12,921 nucleotides of DNA, taken from Azolla caroliniana. Lineage: Eukaryota > Plantae > Polypodiophyta. A program made the position numbers and the translations under genes. The DNA is taken from assembly GCA_043228905.1 (NCBI GenBank), contig JBHGNT010001015.1:1-12921 (forward strand). Direction: 5' to 3'. Positions 1,065 through 12,921 of the stretch are shown piece after piece; within the stretch, counting starts at the first letter, position 1; each line of letters begins with the position of its first letter. A model generated the notes under the pieces. The model did not search any database, was not told the origin of the DNA, and saw only the letters and a list, made by a program, of their open reading frames with translations.

Positions 1065-1298
1065 CATGTATTTATCAATAAAGGAATGTGACATATTACC
1101 TGTTTCAAATGACCCAGTGTTTCAATTGCTTTAAAGAATCTTGAACTTCTTAAGGGATCCAATGATCACAAGTCAATGTATGATGACATGATCAAGCGTG
1201 TGGATTTGGATGGTGATGGCCAAGTAAATTTCCCAGAGTTTCAAAAGATGACGGATCTTAGACCGATCGATTTTAGTCCAAGGAGTGAAAGTAGGTGA
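1065..1298 (+). pseudogene. Calmodulin-like (CML) EF-hand gene fragment, C-terminal lobe
   Basis: Frame reads ...ALKNLELLKGSNDHKSMYDDMIKRVDLDGDGQVNFPEFQKMT..., with a canonical 12-residue EF-hand loop DLDGDGQVNFPE at 1203-1238 and a stop at 1296-1298. The upstream partner EF-hand is degenerate with in-frame stops (HVFINKGM*HIT...K*). Absent from the ORF track. Confidence 0.65.
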
Positions 1299-2539
1299 CG
1301 CAATTGATTTTGACGGATCAACTGAAGATCACGATTCTTAGACCCATTTATTTTCATCTTAAGCAATCAAAAGTAGGTGATTTGTGCATGGCTTGATAAA
1401 TTGTAAGGGAAGTGGGTCATGTAGGATAGGGGTTGCCACAAGGTATTGATGCATATTTGTGCATAATAGCTCATTCATTCCCCAGAGGAAAGTCAATTAA
1501 TTACATACATGCATACCCATGTTAAAATACATTTGTACAAACAAGTAATTAGATTATTCCTTGCCATAGGCCTCTAGGTTAATCCAAGTAACTAGATTGT
1601 GATATTTTGGATCAACTTTGCTTAGTTCCATGATGAGGCAAATAGATTTTTTGATGAAATTTACTCATGTGTTCTATTCTATTATGGGGCAAAATGTTTG
1701 TGTATGTATGACATCTCTTTTAACATACATACCAATCATAAATTATTCAAATCCATTGTTGGCTCATAAAATGTATTGGTAAAGTCATAATTCGTGATTG
1801 GTTGTCTCAACGATGAATATGCATGCCTCATGTTGATTAACTAATTATAAGCCCAAACATCTTCATGCCCTTGATGATAAGTTCTTTGCAATATTGAGTC
1901 AATCTAGTTCATGCATTTATTTTTTTGGGCCTGTAGACATCAATCTAAGTTCCACCTATAGATAGATTTCTCAAACTACTCACTTCATGACTAATGCACG
2001 AGAAATAGAAATGGCTCATTATAACTACTGTAATTGTATAGAGTGCATGGAACTTTCCTTGCACAACATTCATGCAAGATAAAACTTGGTTGAATGGAAC
2101 TAATCCGGGGGGAAGTTCATGCAATAGAAGGTATGTTGACGGAACCAACATGCATGAAAGATTATTAAAACTTGATTGAATGGAACCAATTTCATGGGGA
2201 ACTTTTTGCAATAGAAAAAGGCGCATGTCAGTGAAAGGTGCCTAAAAATTTGGAAGTGCAAACTAGAAAGCTCTATATGTTTCTATATATTTAGAAGGGT
2301 ATCTAACCTCGTGAAGCCCTAACCTAACACAATTGATCTACATGATTTGCACCAAATTGGACGTGCAAGCAAAGTGTAAAAGCTATGATCTTGCAATCCA
2401 TGTTTTGTAGCTTCCTTGTTACGAATCCGAGGTTAATCATCCTATTCCAATGAATTCTCATGTCAAGAGCTGTGTTGCAATCTAACGTTGTGGCATCAAT
2501 AATAATTGCTCGCTTCTAGAAATGTTTGGACTCCAGTTA

Positions 2540-2560
2540 CTCTCTCTCTCTCTCTCTCTC
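2540..2560. repeat. (CT)10 microsatellite
   Basis: Direct reading. Confidence 0.95.
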
Positions 2561-2654
2561 GTGATGTTCTATTCATTGCAGATACACATACAATTAATGG
2601 CAATTAATCGACAATATGGACTGAATAACAACCCCCAACACACACAGTATGACT

Positions 2655-2667
2655 AGGCTACCGAAAA
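2655..2667 (+). repeat. Left TSD of the LINE insertion (AGGCTACCGAAAA)
   Basis: 12/13 match to AGGCTACCCAAAA at 10753-10765, just after the LINE poly(A). Lies where the minus-strand ORF2-like frame ends. Confidence 0.75.
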
Positions 2668-2952
2668 AAAATTTCATTTTAGCCTCTTGTTTGCTAAAAA
2701 ATAAGCTTTCATAGGCTCTTGTTCAACTAGTGACTCTAGGAATATAGCACTCCAGTGTAAGCTTTCGAAGCGTAAAGAGTTCCCTGATTCTGAATTCCTC
2801 CCTCTCCATTTTATGTGATGCAATACTTCCTTCCAATGCTATAGAAGCTTTGAGCTAAACGGACATCCTTTGATGTGCCCGTCAAGCTTTCCAAACACTA
2901 CATCCCAATGGTTAGTATCCCATGAGCCAAATGACTCGGTTTTCCAATGATC
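2668..2952 (-). pseudogene. LINE ORF2 post-RT segment, continuing left of the copia insertion
   Basis: Reads DHWKTESFGSWDTNHWDVVFGKLDGHIKGCPFSSKLL*HWKEVLHHIKWRGRNSESGNSLRFESLHWSAIFLESLVEQEPMKAYFLANKRLK. Joins the 5767+ segment once the copia and one TGATC copy are removed. Confidence 0.7.
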
Positions 2953-3550
2953 TGTTAGGATTTTGGTCCCTCCGGATGGGATATGAGTACTCGGCAAGGA
3001 AGACCCGGTGAGAACCAGATGATGAGTACCCGGCAAGGAAGACCTGGTGAGAACCGGATGATGCAAGCCTGGTGAGAACCTCTCACTAGATGAAGGGACA
3101 TATAGGTAAATATGTTTCTGAGAGCCCATTGGGGCTATATTTGTAAATAGTCCTAATGTCATATTAATATAAATATGACCTAGGGCAAACACATATGGTG
3201 TGTTGTCATTATTTGTTGTATAGAGTTATTGAGTGTAACTATTGTACAGAGTGAGAGAGAGATACAGAGCGAGTCTCTGTTGTAACCGCCGCCAGGCAAA
3301 GATTGTGAGCAAGAGGTTGTTGCCTCTGTGTTCACCTGTTGTATTCCTCTCGACATAGTGATAGTTGGAGTTTGTGGACTCCCGTGGTTTTTCCCATTTA
3401 GGGTTTTCCACGTAAACATATTGTGTACCGTCTCTCATATTGTCTGTGTGTACGTGTAGTCACCTCGATTCCCATTCTCGGTGTTCGATTCGAAACGACA
3501 CGGTCTAAGACTCGGTTGTGGCTGAGTAATATTCCACATATTTTGTGTCA
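2953..3550 (+). repeat. 5' LTR of copia element (598 bp)
   Basis: TGTTAGGATT...TTTGTGTCA. My manual alignment to the 3' LTR gives about 28 substitutions in ~520 non-array positions (~95% identity). Confidence 0.96.
2983..3060 (+). repeat. 39-bp U3 tandem repeat, 2 copies
   Basis: Unit consensus ATGAGTACCCGGCAAGGAAGACCCGGTGAGAACCGGATG at 2983-3021 and 3022-3060. Confidence 0.95.
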
Positions 3551-3553
3551 ATT

Positions 3554-3565
3554 TGGTATCAAAGC
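3554..3565 (+). promoter_or_regulatory. Primer-binding site (initiator tRNA-Met type)
   Basis: TGGTATCAAAGC, one mismatch from the canonical TGGTATCAGAGC, 3 nt after the 5' LTR. Confidence 0.9.
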
Positions 3566-3580
3566 GAAACGACACAGAAA

Positions 3581-3697
3581 ATAGAAGATTCGTTGGGAGG
3601 CATGTTCAAGCTCACCGGCTCCAACTGCTCAGTGTGGAAGTCGAAGATGAGGGACATGCTCGTGGTTAAAGATCTTTGGTTGCCGGTTCAGTTCAGG
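3581..3697 (+). pseudogene. gag: Copia gag N-terminal stub
   Basis: (I/M)EDSLGGMFKLTGSNCSVWKSKMRDMLVVKDLWLPVQF matches the copia Gag N-terminal pattern KLxGxNYxxWKxxMxxxL. Confidence 0.8.
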
Positions 3698-5060
3698 GGA
3701 CGTTGGAAATCCACCAAGGTATAAGGCTCGAATCGTGGTGAAGGGCTTCCAACAGAAGAAAGGAGTGGACTTCGAATGACTTTTATCCGGACGGTACTGA
3801 GCATAGCGGCAAGCATGGATCTCAAGGTAGAGCAGTTAGACGTGAAGACAGCATTCCTTCACGGTGACCTTCAAGAGGAGATCTACATGCAGCAACCGGA
3901 AGGATTTGTGAAGAAAGGGAAGGAGCACCTGGTTTGTCAATTGAAGAAAAGCCTATACGGACTAAAGCAGGTTCCCCGGCAATGGTACCAGAAGTTCGAC
4001 TCCTTCATGACGGATCAAGGATACCACAAGACGCAGGCCGATCGCGTGTTTGTGAAGAAGTATGAAGGTGGAGACTTCTTGATACTCCTCCTATACGTGG
4101 ACGACATGTTGATCGTCGGACGAGACCAAGTCAGGATACGGATGTTGAAGAAGGCCCTTAACCGGACCTTCTCAATGAAAGACTTGGGTCCGGCAAGATA
4201 GATACTAGGGATGCACATCATCCGGAACTGGTCGAAGAAGCAATTGTGGTTGTCACAGGAAAAGTATGTGACAAAGGTGCTTCAACGGTTTAACATGTTA
4301 GAAGCAAAACCGGCCGGATCGACACTCCCGGAAAACTGCAGATTATCCGGTAAGCAAAGCCTGAAGACGAAGGCAGAGAAGGTAGATATGATGAAGATAC
4401 CATATGCCTCTGCCGTCGGGAGCTTAATGTACACAATGGTGTGTACCCGACCGGATACGATACGTAGTAGGAATGGTGAGCCCGTTCATGAGCAATCCCG
4501 GCAGAGAGCACTGGAACGCAGTGACGTGGATACTCCGGTACTTGAAAGGCACCTCAAGTATGTGCCTCTGATTCGACTCCGGTAAACCTCAACTTGATGG
4601 TTTCACAGATTCGGATATGTCGGCTGATGCGGACACCAGTCGGTCAACTTCCGGATATGTCATGACCTATGCAAGGGGAGCTGTTTCGTGCTAGTTGAGG
4701 CTGCAAAAGACGATTGCGTTGTCAACCACGTAGGCGGAGTACATGGCAGTCGTGGAAGCCGGCAAGGAAATATTATGGATGAAGGACTTCATCGGAGAGC
4801 AAGGGATCCGGCAAGAGGAATACCGGCTCTATTGCGCTAGTCAAAGTGCCATCCACCTTGCAAAGAACATGGCATACCATTCCAGAACGAAGCACATCTA
4901 GCGCATGTACCACTGGATCCGGGAGCGAGTAGAAGATCGAGAGTTTGTGTTGACGAAGATCCACATGGAAGAGAACGGGTCGGATATGCTAACCAAGGTA
5001 CTGACACCCAACAAGTTGGACATGCCGGAAGCGGATCGGGCTGACGAGGCATCCCATGCC
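3698..5060 (+). pseudogene. pol: Copia pol remnant: reverse transcriptase (RVT_2) and RNase H
   Basis: Motifs RYKARIVVKGFQQKKGVDF, QLDVKTAFLHG, LKKSLYGLKQ, LLLYVDDML, PYASAVGSLMY, GFTDSD, RSTSGYV, ALSTT*AEY, HSRTKHI, DMLTK. Several stops and frameshifts. Confidence 0.95.
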
Positions 5061-5075
5061 GAAGTGAAGGGGGAG
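5061..5075 (+). promoter_or_regulatory. Polypurine tract
   Basis: GAAGTGAAGGGGGAG, 2 nt before the 3' LTR. Confidence 0.9.
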
Positions 5076-5077
5076 TT

Positions 5078-5761
5078 TGTTAGGATTTCGGTCCTTCCGG
5101 ATGGGATATGAGTACCCAGCAAGGAAGACTCGGTGAGAACCGGATGATGAGTACCTAGCAAGGAAGACCCGGTGAGAACCGGATGATGAGTACCCGACAA
5201 GGAAGACCTGGTGAGAACCGGATGATGAGAACCCGGCAAGGAAGACCCAGTGACAACCGGATGATGCAGGCCCGGTGAGAAACTCTCACCGGATGAAGGG
5301 ACATATAGGTAAATATGTTTTTGAGAGCCCATTGGGGCTATATATGTAAATAGTCCTAATGTCATATTAGTATAAATATGACCTAGGGCAAACACATATG
5401 GTGTGTTGTCATTATTTGTTGTATAGAGTTATTGAGTGTAACTGTTGTACAGAGTGAAAGAGAGAGAGAGAGATACAGAGCGAGTCTCTGTTGTAACCGT
5501 CGCCAGGCAAAGATTGTGAGCAAGAGGTTGTTGCCTCTGTGTTCACATGTTGTATTCTTCTCGACATAGTGATAGTTGGAGTTTGTGGACTCCCGTGGTT
5601 TTTCCCATTTAGGTTTTTCCACGTAAACATACTGTGTACCCTCTCTCATATTGTTTGTGTGTACGTGTATTCACCTCCATTCCCATTCTGGGTGTTCGAT
5701 TCAAAACAACACGATCTGAGACTCGGTTGTGGCTGAGTAATATTCCGCATATTTCGCGTCA
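5078..5761 (+). repeat. 3' LTR of copia element (684 bp)
   Basis: TGTTAGGATT...TTCGCGTCA. It is 86 bp longer than the 5' LTR: two extra 39-bp units plus 8 bp in an AG microsatellite. Confidence 0.96.
5108..5263 (+). repeat. 39-bp U3 tandem repeat, 4 copies
   Basis: Units at 5108-5146, 5147-5185, 5186-5224 and 5225-5263. Confidence 0.95.
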
Positions 5762-5766
5762 TGATC

Positions 5767-7415
5767 AAACATATCAAATAGCATTCTTGCCCAAGGCAAT
5801 GTTTGTCAAAAAAAATTGGCAATAAAGTAGCTTTTCTGGCCAACATATGCAAATGCAATTTAAGAATATTTAGCCCTCCACTCAATCGTGGAGTGCATAT
5901 CTTCTCTAGGGATAGGAGTCATATACCTCTATGCGAGTACTTAGAGCACCAAACGTTGCTTATAATTTCTGAGTTAATCTTTTGTATCATGTGTTTCGGC
6001 CAATCAATCATAATTAAGTAATATTGCATGTAAGCCATGAATATAGATTGCACTATATGCAATCTGACATGGAGTGGCCATGTTGCAATCTTCTAATAGC
6101 TTAACTTTTGTCTCACTTTTTGCAGAACCCATTCAACCTTTCTTTTCCCTGTTGCATTCCATCCCAATGGATAGCCAAGATGTCTAACCATTTCATTTGG
6201 GCTAACAACTTGACCTGGCCACAAAAGCTGATGCCAACTATATGGTGTCAAGGGTAGACATTTGGACCTGTTGAAGTTAACATGCAATCTAGCAACTAAT
6301 CCATACAATTTGAGGGCATCCATAATCACCCTCATATCATTTGGATTGTTTTGTGACAGGAATGATGTATCATATGCATATGCCTGAGCCACGAAATCAT
6401 GTTCGCCTTTCATTTGCAAACCGCAAAGTTGACCAATTAATATTAGATGATCCATGTACAATATAGTAGATGAGTTGCCATTGCATACAACAATGCACTT
6501 ATAGGACAATCTTGTAGTACTGATTTGGCTAAGCTCCATGAATTTGTCAATTCACCCTCAATAATGCATGAAGATGTGCTAGACCTATAAAGCCAATAGA
6601 TTACTTGAGACATTTTCGGACCAAATCCTAGTTTGACCATTGTGGCTACCACAAAATCCCATTGGATGGTGTCAAAGGCCTTTTCAATGTCAATTTGCAT
6701 GAGCAATACATCTTGTTTGGTGAATTTGGCATCCTCCATTCCAATATAGGCATTAGAAATATTATCTATAATTTGCCTTCAGGAATGAACCCGTACTAGT
6801 TTATGTGGATGTCTCCCAACAAAGTGCCCTTAATACGATTAGCAATTACCTTTGCAATAATTTTATAGATCACTGGCATGAGAGTGATTGGTCGCCAATG
6901 CAAAAAAGATTCACACAATGTTTTCTTGGGTATTAATTTGATCAAACCTTCTTTCCATGAGATCGGCATATCCCATTGTTGCCAAGCATTATTTGCCATA
7001 GATAGGATTAAATCCTTAAGGACATCCCAAAATTTTGCAATGAACCCTAACGTAATACCATCCCAACCAAGCGCTTTGCCTTTCCTGAGGCCCTTCTGAG
7101 CCTCCAAAAGCTCCTCCATTGTGAATGTTGCATCCAAAGCAATAGCTTTATGAACAAAAATAGTGGCTTGAACTAGTGACAAGAATGTATCTCTGGCCTG
7201 TTTAACTACATCTGTAACAACTACATTGTTCTCAAAGATGTGAGAGAAGTGAGTTACACATTCTTTGGCTAGTTCAAGTCGGTTTGTAGTCCACAAACCC
7301 TCATTAGTTTTGATGAATTTAATGGATTCCTTTTGGCGTATTAAATGCAACCTTTTGAAGAAGGATTTAGAAGAGCATCCTGTGTCTTTCAATGGAACTG
7401 TCTTGACCTAACTTG
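5767..7415 (-). pseudogene. LINE ORF2 reverse transcriptase region (frameshifted)
   Basis: Motifs KGKALGWDG, LIPKK, WRPITLM, YKIIAK, DIEKAFD, LQDCPISALLY, AYAYDT (decayed YADD), VNFNRSK, RHLGYPLG and downstream ICTPRLSGGLNI. Spread over ORFs 6796-7392, 6443-6739, 6093-6539 and 5646-5885. Confidence 0.93.
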
Positions 7416-7637
7416 TGTCAGGAATAGTACTGAGACAGAGAAGAAATTAGTACTAAGAGGAATAGAGGGTGTCGAACACTCAAGAGAAGGAGAGAGAGAG
7501 GGAGGGAGGGAGAGAGAGATCGAGGGAGAGAAAATGATGATGACAACGATATATTATGTGAGAAGAATATACAAGGAAGGCTAGGGGGCTTAAGACTGGC
7601 GTTGAACCGATTTGGTTCGAAATAATGCCTTGTGCCT

Positions 7638-7647
7638 CCTTTTATAG
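7638..7647 (-). promoter_or_regulatory. TATA box of the solo LTR
   Basis: CTATAAAAGG on the minus strand, followed downstream by a CT-rich tract (AG-rich 7484-7530 on plus). Confidence 0.6.
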
Positions 7648-7666
7648 TGTTCTTAGGAGTAGTCCT

Positions 7667-7699
7667 GAAGCTTTTAGAATGTTCCAGAGAAATCTGGAA
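7667..7699. promoter_or_regulatory. Heat-shock-element-like array
   Basis: GAAgcTTTtaGAAtgTTCcaGAGaaATCtgGAA: seven alternating GAA/TTC units in exact 5-bp phase (4 perfect, 3 with one mismatch), 20-52 bp upstream of the minus-strand TATA box. Confidence 0.6.
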
Positions 7700-7757
7700 T
7701 ATATTGTCATTAATTTTCTATAGTAAAACTTAAATAAAAATAATATTCTACGTATTA

Positions 7758-7830
7758 CAATAGATAGTGTAATGGTCAAGAGCTCGACCCATGTAATATA
7801 AGGTCATGGGTTTGAGTCTTGCCATATCAT
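7758..7830 (+). other. Decayed tRNA-like module (Pol III A and B boxes) inside the solo LTR
   Basis: A-box-like TAGTGTAATGG at 7765-7775 and B-box-like GGTTTGAGTCT at 7809-7819, with starts 44 nt apart as in tRNA positions 8 and 52. Also AGAGC after the D-loop, AGGTC variable loop and a T-arm ATGGG-TTTGAGT-CTTGC. Acceptor and anticodon stems do not pair, so it is not a functional tRNA. Confidence 0.6.
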
Positions 7831-7839
7831 GACAACTTG

Positions 7840-9091
7840 CCATTTTTCCAATTTATTTTTGTCATGTAGCATCAATGTGTGTTTGGCCATACATAATGCA
7901 TCGTCTTTATGTAAAGTCAAAGATCTTCTATGTGCTAACTCCGTTAGGGCTTGACAAGTAAATTTGGCTTGTTGAGTGTAATATGTCTGTCTTGAGACAT
8001 ACCACTTCCCATACTCTTGTATTATTGTTTGTAATCTATGTACAAAATGTACCCACGCTATATCAACATCTATGTTGACTTCTACATAAAGAGGAGATAT
8101 TATGTCATAGACCATCATCTTGAAGACTTCATGCTTGAGGTTGTTGTTGTTAATGACCATAAGTCTCTTTCTTTGGAGATGCACTTCATAGTAATGATTC
8201 CCAAAATGAAGGTCTAGCCAGACAGGAGCATGATCTGACAACTGCAAAGCATGATCTATATGCATTGTACATGATCTATGTTGACTTCTACATAAAGAGG
8301 AGGTATTATGTCATAGACCATCATCTTGAAGACTTCATGCTTGAGGTTGTTGTTGTTAATGACCATAAGTCTCTTTCTTTGGAGATGCACTTCATAGTAA
8401 TGATTCCCAAAATGAAGGTCTAGCCAGACAGGAGCATGATCTGACAACTGCAAAGCATGATCTATATGCATTGTACAAGTGAAATTTTAATACCGACTAG
8501 CATGCAACAAATACCATCTATCAAGCCTTGCATAGTATGCAGAGTAGGTGGTGTGATTAAAGGTAAAACCAAGAACATGTGGGTGTGTCATTTGCCATAA
8601 ATCAACCCAATCCAATGAGTTTTGCATATTATACCATTGACCTTGTTCACTAGTGTTATCACCTGCATTTGGAGAGTTGTTGAAATCTCCACATATAAAT
8701 GCATTTTGTGACCATGGATAAGCACACATGTCTTGCCAAAGTAAAGCTCTGTGCCTTGAGGCATTCGGGGCATTCCAACAAAATCATACGTCTCACCATT
8801 TATCATGCATTGTACAACCATCCACCTCCCACTTTGATCATTATAGGCAACCATAGGATTTAGCTCATGTTTTATGATCATAAGCACTCCAGATGTTGTA
8901 CCTTGACCTGCATAGAAGATGTCAAAACCTCCAAATGAACCAACTTGACCATTGAATTCAACTTGTTTATGTTCTTGAACACAAATTACATCTGCTTGAG
9001 AAGAGGTAATATAGTTCTAAAATAGTTTCCATTTACTAGGGTTACAAAGACCCCGTATATTGAAGGAGACACATTTTACTTGTTTATGCAT
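7840..9091 (-). pseudogene. LINE ORF2 N-terminus: APE-type endonuclease and linker
   Basis: ATG at 9091. Motifs SFNIRGL, DVICVQEHK, SGVLMII, SGRWMVV, ICGDFN, DLWQ, FTF, ARLDRWY, LSDHAPV. Stops and frameshifts present. Confidence 0.92.
8068..8477. repeat. 204-bp tandem duplication (8068-8271 and 8274-8477)
   Basis: Copies differ at one position (GAGGAGATAT vs GAGGAGGTAT) and are separated by a 2-nt spacer TG. Explains the twin ORFs starting MHIDHALQLSDHAPVW. Confidence 0.95.
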
Positions 9092-11906: not shown

Positions 11907-12382
11907 GTAATAATCATGGATTGCTCACTCATTGAAAAGGATCAAAGCTATTGGTAGTTATTAGTAGTACATGTATGTTTGTTAGTGATACAATGGATAT
12001 GGATATGTCAGCATAAGAACTACATGCTTGTACTAGTTAGCATACGATGTCTATGGATGGTTCGTCATAATAAGTAGATGTATTTGTTACCTTAAGAAGT
12101 ATATTTATGTATTACCATAAGAAATACATGCATGTGTTACCATAAGAAGTATATGTATGAGTTGGTCATAAGAAGTATATGTATGATAAAAGTATATGTA
12201 TGAGTTAGTCCTAGAAGTATATGCTGTGCCTAGTCATAAGAAGCATGTGGATATTTTAGTCAGAAGAAGTATATGGATGCATTAGTGACTAGACTTAAGA
12301 AGAAGTATTATGTATGTGTAACTGTATTGCAATGTCAAATGAGAAAAAAGTTTCTCTTTGATCATTTTGTATGTTTTTGCAG
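11907..12382 (+). other. Spliceosomal intron (GT...AG, 476 bp)
   Basis: GTAATA donor and TTTTTGCAG acceptor ending at 12382. Splicing keeps the frame (junction codon G+TT = Val). Confidence 0.7.
11955..12320. repeat. Degenerate ~25-26-bp minisatellite within the remorin intron
   Basis: Recurrent CATAAGAAGTATATGTATG(A/T)GTT(A/G)GT-like units, clearest at 12090-12280. Confidence 0.75.
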
Positions 12383-12914
12383 TTGATTCAGACGTAGGTG
12401 TCGTGGAGCAAAAGAAACTTTTTGTTGATGGGCTAGCAGAAGGACGGTCAGTTTTGACAAAAGATGCATATACTGAGGTCTCACCTTCAACATCAAAAAG
12501 AGACATGGGTACTCAAATGACCCCATTCTCAAGTTCTTGTTCTTCTCCTGTTAGAAATAGCTCACCCCCACGACATAATACACCGGTCAAGAAGAGGCGG
12601 AATAGTGATGTGATGAAAAAGGATAATATTAGTAGCAATGACAATTCAGTTCTTGATAGTAACGATTACATCAATCATGTGGAGATTTTGGAGGGGTGCC
12701 GCATGTCTAATTTGGCTCTTATGGACCTCCCTTGTGGAAGCAACGTGTCCTTCCAATCCTGTGATGAGCAAGTATGTGCACATAGTCCAATGAATGTAGT
12801 GACCGAGGAGAATTGTCATGCAGTGGAAGGTAAAAACATTTCGGGGTCCTTTACCCTTTTGGAGACCCATACGGCGGCATGGGAGGAAGCCGAACGAGCG
12901 AAATGTATTGCTAA
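12383..12914 (+). CDS. REM: Remorin (group 6-like), coding exon B; gene continues beyond the window
   Basis: Uninterrupted frame with RDMGTQMTP, SPPRHNTP and LETHTAAWEEAERAKCIAK (start of the Remorin_C coiled coil). Probable phase-2 donor AA|GTGGGT at 12914/12915. Not in the ORF track, probably because it has no stop in the window. Confidence 0.9.
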
Positions 12915-12921
12915 GTGGGTT

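What the first reader, a model, noticed from the sequence alone, without database searches (positions are those of the whole stretch)
7758..7834. Solo LTR carries a tRNA-derived Pol III module at its terminus
Seen: the last ~75 bp of the TSD-flanked TG..CA element follow tRNA layout. They contain an A box (7765-7775), AGAGC, a CATGTAA loop at the anticodon position (TGT, Thr-like), AGGTC, and a T-arm/B box (7806-7822) at canonical spacing. All differences from an ideal GCGGG-TTCGAGT-CCCGC T-arm are C>T or G>A changes, as methylation decay would give. Known: Cassandra TRIMs carry 5S-derived Pol III promoters in their LTRs, and from memory tRNA-like LTR sequences were reported for the Helenus non-autonomous group. 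Inference: this is an LTR family that captured a tRNA/SINE head, oriented antisense to the Pol II promoter and pointing out of the element. It could act as a Pol III promoter, a TFIIIC-bound insulator or a source of antisense RNA.
Basis: partly seen in the sequence, partly recalled or inferred. Interest (0 to 1): 0.8.

Follow-up and report, generated by a model that had tools for sequence, protein, structure and literature searches.

The report
Backwards tRNA relic in chromovirus LTR
This is a lone end-repeat of a very abundant, protein-coding plant jumping gene; its first 75 bases carry a backwards sequence likely derived from a tRNA or SINE and predicted to fold as one long hairpin, and nothing yet shows that it is transcribed or does anything.

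Summary
The 419-bp solo LTR (7416-7834, TSD ACTTG) is real. It belongs to an autonomous chromovirus (Gag, integrase, chromodomain, PPT, predicted self-priming; Tcn1-like), not to a Helenus/TRIM element. The LTR reads on the minus strand, so the tRNA-like stretch is the start of U3, antisense, next to the PPT. It is family-wide: a tRNA profile hits it in 9 of 10 related loci (best E 4e-6), A-to-B box spacing is tRNA-like, and the window's B-box C>T is private to this copy. Rfam and ARAGORN call no tRNA. The 'anticodon loop' and much of the A box mirror the T arm and LTR end, so the Thr call fails. Best reading: a tRNA/SINE head captured once, remodelled into a hairpin and copied with every LTR; Pol III activity is untested and probably lost in this copy. 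The scan had no note on this family, but noted antisense tRNA relics in Gypsy elements of two other genomes. New variant of a known kind; interest 0.45.

The parts
7411..7415 (.). left target-site duplication ACTTG
7835..7839 (.). right target-site duplication ACTTG
7416..7834 (-). 419-bp solo LTR of an autonomous chromovirus (Tcn1-like); U3 starts at 7834, U5 ends at 7416
   Evidence: 82-84% identity over the full length to LTRs in L006, L007, L010; PPT abuts 7834 and PBS abuts 7416 in relatives
7758..7824 (+). tRNA-like module, antisense to the element; likely tRNA/SINE-derived; isotype not assignable
7765..7775 (+). A-box-like motif; 7 of its 9 defined bases are also explained by the mirror of the LTR end, G10 and A14 are not
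7809..7819 (+). B-box-like motif; C56 is changed to T at 7813 in this copy only
7772..7793 (.). inner arm of the fold-back (mirror of 7805-7825)
7805..7825 (.). outer arm of the fold-back; the loop is 7794-7804
7753..7760 (+). TATTACAA, identical in 8 of 8 aligned copies, just upstream of the A box; holds a CAA as at plant tRNA start sites (role inferred)
7640..7646 (-). TATA box of the LTR's Pol II promoter (predicted)
7602..7613 (-). predicted self-primer: 12 nt complementary to the family PBS, starting 33 nt after the TATA
7843..7847 (+). first run of 5 T in the flank; would end a Pol III transcript of about 90 nt
6093..9016 (-). decayed LINE into which the LTR element inserted (RT and endonuclease remnants)
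   Evidence: RVT_1 E 1.6e-6, Exo_endo_phos E 1.3e-4, both under the curated cut-offs

Best explanation
This is the solo LTR of an autonomous chromovirus retrotransposon whose first ~75 bases are likely a tRNA- or SINE-derived head captured backwards, since reshaped into a predicted fold-back hairpin and copied into both LTRs at each transposition. Shown: the LTR, its TSD, its link to Gag and integrase-chromodomain ORFs, the PPT, the orientation, the family-wide presence of the module and the mirror symmetry of its two halves. Inferred: the element is transcribed by Pol II from its TATA box and primes its minus strand from its own 5' end, so it needs neither a Pol III promoter nor a primer tRNA; the module sat in U3 of the family's ancestor as a tRNA-like head; its halves were then matched to each other, by template-switch correction of a quasi-palindrome (recalled mechanism) or by selection for a stem-loop directly after the PPT and the pol stop codon. 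What the family most likely keeps today is the hairpin, with the A and B boxes as a relic. This solo copy has lost B-box C56 and is probably silent for Pol III.
For: Parent element: integrase + SH3 + chromodomain ORF ends at the PPT/LTR junction in L004/L007 and L010, and a Gag ORF follows the LTR in L007. PBS does not start with TGG and pairs 12 of 12 with an LTR stretch 33 nt after the TATA in the window, L006 and L010 (3 of 5 copies; 3 of 5000 shuffles; the MFE fold of L007 makes the same pairing). tRNA ancestry: profile hits in 9 of 10 loci and 8 of 10 with an unselected T5-only profile; the 3' half alone scores 16.6 bits in L008; RF00005 is the lowest-E hit on the L008 module (13.2 bits); 18 of the 30 listed (52 total) weak BLAST hits of the L008 module in phages lie on annotated tRNAs of six isotypes; two further stretches (L006:693-750, L010:250-276) resemble the L008 module (7 and 1 of 2000 shuffles), have no mirror, and the first keeps a D arm and anticodon arm (RF00005 16.5 bits). 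Hairpin: RNA z -3.7 to -5.2 in 4 of 5 copies on the tRNA-sense strand; mirror score above all 150 shuffles in 5 of 8 copies and above all 39 real tRNAs; 93% of cells paired and 3 pairs changed on both sides. Against a strict promoter: A-box G10 is changed to A, which improves the mirror, in L004/L007 and in 17%, 43% and 0.04% of contig depth in three DNA runs; only 4 of 9 distinct loci hold both a perfect A box and GTTCRA.
Against: The hairpin is weak or absent in 3 of 8 copies (L002, L003, L008). Covariation is not significant (34 of 500 and 18 of 500 shuffles), two of the three double changes are of the deamination type, and one-sided changes favour neither strand. Several promoter-like bases outside the stem are also constant (TATTACAA 8 of 8; A14; AAGGT in the loop, under 2% variation in three runs; C56 10 of 10 loci), which fits promoter selection as well. 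Only 9 distinct loci were available, chosen by one junction pattern; the contig tables list no variants at all for 7805-7834, so they say nothing on the B box. L007 and L009 have a mismatch in the self-primer. No RT sequence or labelled tree was available.
Confidence: 0.5

Rival explanations
1. The module is a working type-2 Pol III promoter or TFIIIC site kept by selection in intact family members: it would make a short antisense RNA (about 120 nt across the PPT and pol stop codon from 3' LTRs, flank-terminated from solo LTRs) or act as a boundary shielding the LTR's Pol II promoter.
For: Box spacing 35-36 nt in 8 of 8 copies, GTTCRA in 9 of 10 loci, C56 in 10 of 10; the breaks in the mirror fall on tRNA-type bases (G10, A14, T20, G24); L008 matches the other copies at 85% in the A box and 98% in the variable loop against 59% in the anticodon-arm region; constant CAA and an AT-rich stretch upstream, as at plant tRNA genes; a T4 run 37 nt beyond the LTR end in 4 of 5 internal-linked copies checked.
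Against: No expression data. G10 is lost in a high-coverage copy and in large shares of contig depth; B-box identity of L008 (76%) is no higher than distant U3 (79%); the family is methylation-decayed (G>A and C>T dominate); the element has its own TATA box.
Confidence: 0.25
2. No tRNA ancestry: the LTR end was duplicated as a fold-back, and a chance T-arm-like word plus its mirror give the look of A and B boxes.
For: 7 of 9 defined A-box bases and the whole 'anticodon' side are explained by the mirror; Rfam gives no tRNA hit for L010 or L006 modules even on 111-base stretches; only 1 of 5 BLAST hits of the L010 module is a tRNA; the window copy is missed by the T5-only profile.
Against: The 3' half scores by itself and includes loop bases outside the mirror; L008 runs on through an acceptor-like 3' strand to a discriminator position; mirror-free tRNA-like relatives exist in the same loci.
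Confidence: 0.15
3. The antisense stretch is an annealing site in the genomic RNA for a host tRNA, like the U3 half of the bipartite PBS of Ty3, used in RNA folding or packaging.
For: Ty3 pairs the T and D arms of its primer tRNA with U3 sequence (PMC5371799, passages); the stretch is in U3 and complementary to tRNA.
Against: The family is predicted to self-prime; the site is buried in its own hairpin; no CCA tail at positions 74-76; subfamilies differ in the stretch.
Confidence: 0.05
4. The solo LTR comes from a short non-autonomous Helenus-type TRIM that shares the LTR with the autonomous element.
For: A solo LTR cannot show its own former interior; 5-bp TSD as in plant Helenus.
Against: In all 9 loci with 51 or more internal bases the sequence before the PPT is the integrase-chromodomain 3' end; the tRNA is antisense; the LTR (419-434 bp) is longer than any Helenus LTR reported (323 bp).
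Confidence: 0.05

Closest known systems
Tcn1 clade of plant chromoviruses / Tf1-Sushi group (Neumann et al. 2019, PMC6317226, passages; Novikova et al. 2010, PMC2864245, passages and section 6; PMC10085805, passages)
   Same: Integrase with chromodomain bearing the three cage aromatics, non-tRNA PBS predicted to self-prime, PPT, LTR of about 430 bp (SM-Tcn1: 440), 5-bp TSD, T-rich leader before gag.
Helenus / TRIMp3 (Kojima 2024, PMC10886601; main text parts 1-4 and 6 of 6, supplement passages)
   Same: tRNA-like sequence with A and B boxes inside an LTR, no functional tRNA, proposed origin by SINE insertion, 5-bp TSD, solo LTRs.
   Different: Helenus is non-coding, 311-1263 bp and tRNA-primed, with the tRNA in sense in the LTRs I saw; here the parent is autonomous, predicted to self-prime, has a TATA box and carries the module antisense at the LTR tip as a hairpin. 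The paper notes that 'not a few' Repbase LTRs hold tRNA-like parts but analyses only TRIMs.
Cassandra and Ajax (as described in PMC10886601)
   Same: Small-RNA-gene-derived Pol III motif in the LTR.
   Different: 5S-derived, non-autonomous; Cassandra is transcribed from that promoter.
PPT-adjacent stem-loops of Sire LTRs and HIV (PMC3601003, passages)
   Same: Inverted repeat at the 5' end of U3 beside the PPT.
   Different: There U3 pairs with sequence upstream of the PPT and displays the PPT in the loop; here both arms lie inside U3.
Ty3 bipartite PBS (PMC5371799, passages)
   Same: tRNA-complementary sequence in U3.
   Different: Ty3 uses it with a tRNA primer; this family has no tRNA-type PBS.

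Membership tests
Solo LTR | TG...CA ends with flanking 4-6 bp TSD, homologous to LTRs of full elements | tested here: met
Chromovirus (Ty3/Gypsy) | Integrase followed by a chromodomain at the end of pol | tested here: met
   rve E 5e-11, SH3_Tf2-1 E 3e-19, Chromo E 9e-15 in L007
Chromovirus (Ty3/Gypsy) | Ty3-type Gag after the 5' LTR | tested here: met
   Retrotrans_gag, Ty3_capsid, DUF4939 in L007; L007 is likely a collapsed contig joining both ends through one LTR
Tcn1 / Tf1-Sushi | Self-priming: transcript 5' end complementary to the PBS, no tRNA-type PBS | tested here: met
   12-nt complement 33 nt after the TATA in 3 of 5 copies, one mismatch in 2; the start site itself is predicted
Tcn1 / Tf1-Sushi | Chromodomain with aromatic cage | tested here: met
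   Y, W, Y read directly in the L007 and L010 translations; cage positions recalled
Tcn1 / Tf1-Sushi | Placement in the clade by RT/RH/INT phylogeny | not testable with these tools
   no RT in the loci and no labelled reference elements
Helenus (TRIMp3) | Non-coding element under about 1.3 kb with two LTRs, PBS and PPT | tested here: not met
   interior is coding in the loci recovered
Helenus (TRIMp3) | tRNA-like sequence with conserved A and B boxes in the LTR | tested here: met
Helenus (TRIMp3) | tRNA-complementary PBS | tested here: not met
Cassandra / Ajax | 5S rRNA-derived LTR segment | tested here: not met
   no 5S match at E<=10
Functional tRNA gene | Cloverleaf with U33 and paired acceptor and anticodon stems | tested here: not met
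Independent tRNA-SINE insertion | Own TSD, body and tail, present in only some LTR copies | tested here: not met
   module runs into the LTR terminus in all 10 loci
Type-2 Pol III promoter | TFIIIC binding and Pol III transcription | not testable with these tools
   no raw RNA reads offered; the one RNA contig run laid was blank

The most novel reading that the evidence does not exclude
A dominant, autonomous, self-priming chromovirus family carries in every LTR a backwards tRNA-derived Pol III unit that is also a long hairpin, so each of its many insertions is a TFIIIC site or a source of short antisense hairpin RNA across its own PPT: a Pol III-driven self-regulation or insulation device in a protein-coding LTR retrotransposon.
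Probability: 0.2. Interest if true: 0.72.

Novelty: new variant of a known kind. Interest (0 to 1): 0.45.

Why it matters
Small-RNA-gene fragments in LTRs have been described for non-coding TRIMs, where they are thought to drive the element's own transcription. Here one sits backwards in a coding element that does not need it, at the tip of U3 beside the PPT, and has become a hairpin. If only a relic, it shows how a tRNA/SINE head can be fixed and rewritten by LTR copying, and it seeds a plant genome with many B-box-like sites. If active, it would be a testable case of Pol III antisense control or insulation built into an autonomous LTR retrotransposon. It is also a warning for annotation: a fold-back can mimic an A box and an anticodon loop.

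Tried and rejected
No whole genome was held, so copy number, age and a genome-wide survey of copies were not possible. Junction pattern in viral contigs: 0 hits. Integrase as a single query in viral contigs: 0. RF00005 by record handle: records not held. Generic PPT + antisense B-box pattern in viral contigs: 120 loci, none with an integrase hit. Distant chromoviruses (99 loci, 33-55% identity): no antisense tRNA-profile hit within the first 100 bases of any putative LTR start (46 had 80 or more LTR bases), so the module is not clade-wide. C-termini of the 120 listed homologues show a shared PPT/LTR junction in the closest ones but no read-through into a tRNA-like stretch; their DNA was not obtainable. 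RNA run X19: nothing laid, no proof of absence. Contig variant tables list nothing for 7805-7834, probably because differences near contig or alignment ends are dropped, so they were not used for the B box. Rejected: Thr isotype; the GCGGG/CCCGC ancestral T stem (any purine-pyrimidine pair passes that test, and the letters are family-wide); Helenus/Cassandra membership; tRNA primer remnant (no CCA at 74-76). The 39-tRNA profile drew on three phage loci picked through hits to L008, so I repeated it with T5 tRNAs only. Two papers found by search held nothing relevant in the passages shown (PMC13192763; PMC13570524, only cites Helenus).

Full report
1. What is in the window. The element at 7416-7834 is 419 bp, begins TGTCA, ends TGACA and is flanked by ACTTG on both sides. 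It sits in a decayed LINE on the minus strand (RT remnant 6446-6778, endonuclease remnant 8591-9016; both Pfam hits are under the curated cut-offs). The A-box-like word is at 7765-7775 and the B-box-like word at 7809-7819; with recalled consensus motifs this is the best of 6 loose A+B pairs on both strands of the window. ARAGORN and Rfam call no tRNA in the window.

2. It is a large repeat family. No genome was held. Twenty of 22 listed runs hold part of the stretch. In four DNA runs 1946-3619 contigs were laid on 7300-7950, most of the depth on the LTR, and junctions skipping the element show LINE copies without it. Depth is not a copy number.

3. The parent element. A junction pattern found 10 metagenome loci (L004 and L007 are 99% identical, so 9 distinct). 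Full-length LTRs in L006, L007 and L010 are 82-84% identical to the window copy. In all 9 loci with at least 51 internal bases the PPT is preceded by the 3' end of an integrase-chromodomain ORF; it is open for 423 aa in L007 and 299 aa in L010 and stops inside the LTR's first bases. Pfam gives rve, Integrase_H2C2, SH3_Tf2-1 and Chromo, and for the ORF after the LTR in L007 Retrotrans_gag, Ty3_capsid and DUF4939. The bases right after the LTR in L007 are complementary over 12 nt to an LTR stretch beginning 33 nt after the TATA box in the window, L006 and L010 (3 of 5000 shuffles reach this); L007 and L009 have a mismatch there, and the MFE fold of L007 from that point still pairs the 5' end with the PBS. 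Self-priming marks the Tf1/Sushi group and, among plant chromoviruses, Tcn1 (PMC6317226 and PMC10085805, passages). SM-Tcn1 has 440-bp LTRs and a 5-bp TSD (PMC2864245, section 6). So the element works like Tcn1; clade membership by phylogeny was not testable.

4. Is the module tRNA-like beyond chance? For this copy alone, weakly: 8.0 bits with a profile of 39 phage tRNAs (E 0.035 in the window; 0 of 300 LTR shuffles, 1 of 30 window shuffles), and not found at E<=3 by a T5-only profile. For the family, yes: hits at the same place and strand in 9 of 10 loci (not L002), best 22 bits, E 3.9e-6 in 36.7 kb, and 8 of 10 with the T5-only profile (best E 4.3e-5). These copies are homologous, so they are not independent trials. 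GTTCRA is present in 9 of 10 loci and C56 in 10 of 10, so the window's T at 7813 is private decay; the A box is perfect in 5 of the 7 distinct loci that hold it; L001 and L005 have lost it; G18-G53 spacing is 36 in 7 of 8 copies and 35 in L008. Rfam is mostly silent: nothing in the 10 loci searched whole, nothing for the L010 and L006 modules on short stretches, and RF00005 at 13.2 bits (gathering 29) for L008. BLAST of the L008 module against phages gave 52 weak matches; 18 of the 30 listed lie on tRNAs of six isotypes; for L010, 1 of 5. No isotype can be named.

5. The 77 bases fold as one long hairpin, not a cloverleaf: z -3.7 (window), -3.9, -4.4, -5.2 and -0.8 (L008) on the tRNA-sense strand; on the element-sense strand 3 of 8 copies have z below -3.5, two about -2 and three none; DNA folds agree for the window and L007 and not for L008. 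7772-7793 is an imperfect mirror of 7805-7825; the mirror score beats all 150 shuffles in 5 of 8 copies and all 39 real tRNAs. The 'CATG' of the supposed anticodon loop is the mirror of the CATG before the B box, position 33 is A, and the flanks do not pair, so the Thr call fails. In L010, 7 of 9 defined A-box bases are also mirror bases; the breaks in symmetry fall on G10, A14, T20 and G24, all tRNA-type bases (counted after the fact). Over 8 copies 93% of cells pair and 3 pairs change on both sides, which 34 of 500 shuffles also reach: suggestive only.

6. Order of events. Two other tRNA-like stretches turned up in the loci: L010:250-276, which ends in the same terminal word as the LTR, and L006:693-750. 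Both align to the L008 module better than shuffles (1 and 7 of 2000), neither has a mirror, and the L006 one keeps a D arm and anticodon arm that RF00005 aligns at 16.5 bits. They may be older relatives or a donor SINE; with L008's longer acceptor-like 3' end this favours 'tRNA head first, mirror later', on two copies only. Among 99 distant chromovirus loci none shows an antisense tRNA at the LTR start, though one plant-type LTR (L029) holds tRNA-like modules in sense. The capture is therefore lineage-specific, and such captures recur.

7. How it most likely works. The element has a TATA box, a predicted self-primer and a PPT, so its cycle needs no Pol III promoter, and one pointing out of U3 could not make genomic RNA. 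Because U3 is copied from the 3' to the 5' LTR in every round (established LTR biology), anything fixed there spreads to all copies. I put 0.5 on a captured head now kept mainly as a hairpin beside the PPT and stop codon (by template-switch correction, recalled, or by selection), 0.25 on a working Pol III/TFIIIC site, 0.15 on a pure fold-back without tRNA ancestry, 0.05 each on a tRNA-annealing site and on a TRIM origin. For the promoter: constant TATTACAA upstream (8 of 8; CAA motifs mark plant tRNA starts, PMC11700998, passages), higher L008 identity in the A box and variable loop than in the anticodon region, and a T4 run 37 nt past the LTR end in 4 of 5 internal-linked copies. Against it: G10 is lost in L004/L007 and in 17%, 43% and 0.04% of depth in three runs, B-box identity of L008 is not above distant U3, and only 4 of 9 distinct loci have both boxes intact. 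This solo copy lacks C56, which is recalled as critical for TFIIIC binding.

8. Novelty. Kojima 2024 (PMC10886601; parts 1-4 and 6 of 6 and supplement passages read) defines Helenus as non-coding TRIMs and remarks that not a few Repbase LTRs hold tRNA-like parts without analysing the others. Ten literature searches showed no description of an antisense tRNA-like hairpin at the U3 start of a Tcn1-like element; Repbase, most subscription journals and the additional files of Neumann et al. 2019 were not seen and could hold such a note. PMC3350952 was seen only as a search listing. The scan's own index had no note on this sequence but lists antisense tRNA relics in Gypsy elements of two other genomes (unchecked). 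Verdict: a real feature, new variant of a known kind, function unshown; interest 0.45.

Noticed in passing
window 2953-5761: Internally deleted Copia element with two LTRs about 94% alike, TSD TGATC (read), RVT_2 remnant and 39-bp tandem repeats in U3 that differ in number between the LTRs.
   Followed up: partly
window 8068-8477: Perfect 206-bp tandem duplication inside the LINE.
   Followed up: no
window 12343-12921: Open frame ending in a remorin-like C-terminal motif (recalled); Pfam gave no hit on the cut fragment.
   Followed up: partly
window 1140-1262: Short stretch that reads like an EF-hand (calmodulin-like) fragment; seen by eye, unchecked.
   Followed up: no
L029:4831-4895 and about 5000-5057: LTR of a distant plant-type chromovirus holds two tRNA-like modules in sense (RF00005 19.3 bits for the first; profile 20.9 bits for the second).
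   Followed up: partly
L006:693-750 (-) and L010:250-276 (-): Further tRNA-like heads without a mirror, similar to the L008 module; possible older LTR subfamilies or a donor SINE.
   Followed up: partly
L010:872-1696: A RING plus kinase gene (KEG-like, recalled) starts about 230 bases from the LTR end of a family member.
   Followed up: no
L001:1-409: Rearranged copy: the LTR breaks off after 44 bases and the integrase 3' end is repeated.
   Followed up: no
L035-L113: 79 contigs in bacterial and archaeal genome bins encode eukaryotic chromovirus integrases, likely binning contamination.
   Followed up: no
window 7602-7624: The predicted self-primer is itself part of a short inverted repeat in the LTR, which could compete with PBS pairing.
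   Followed up: no
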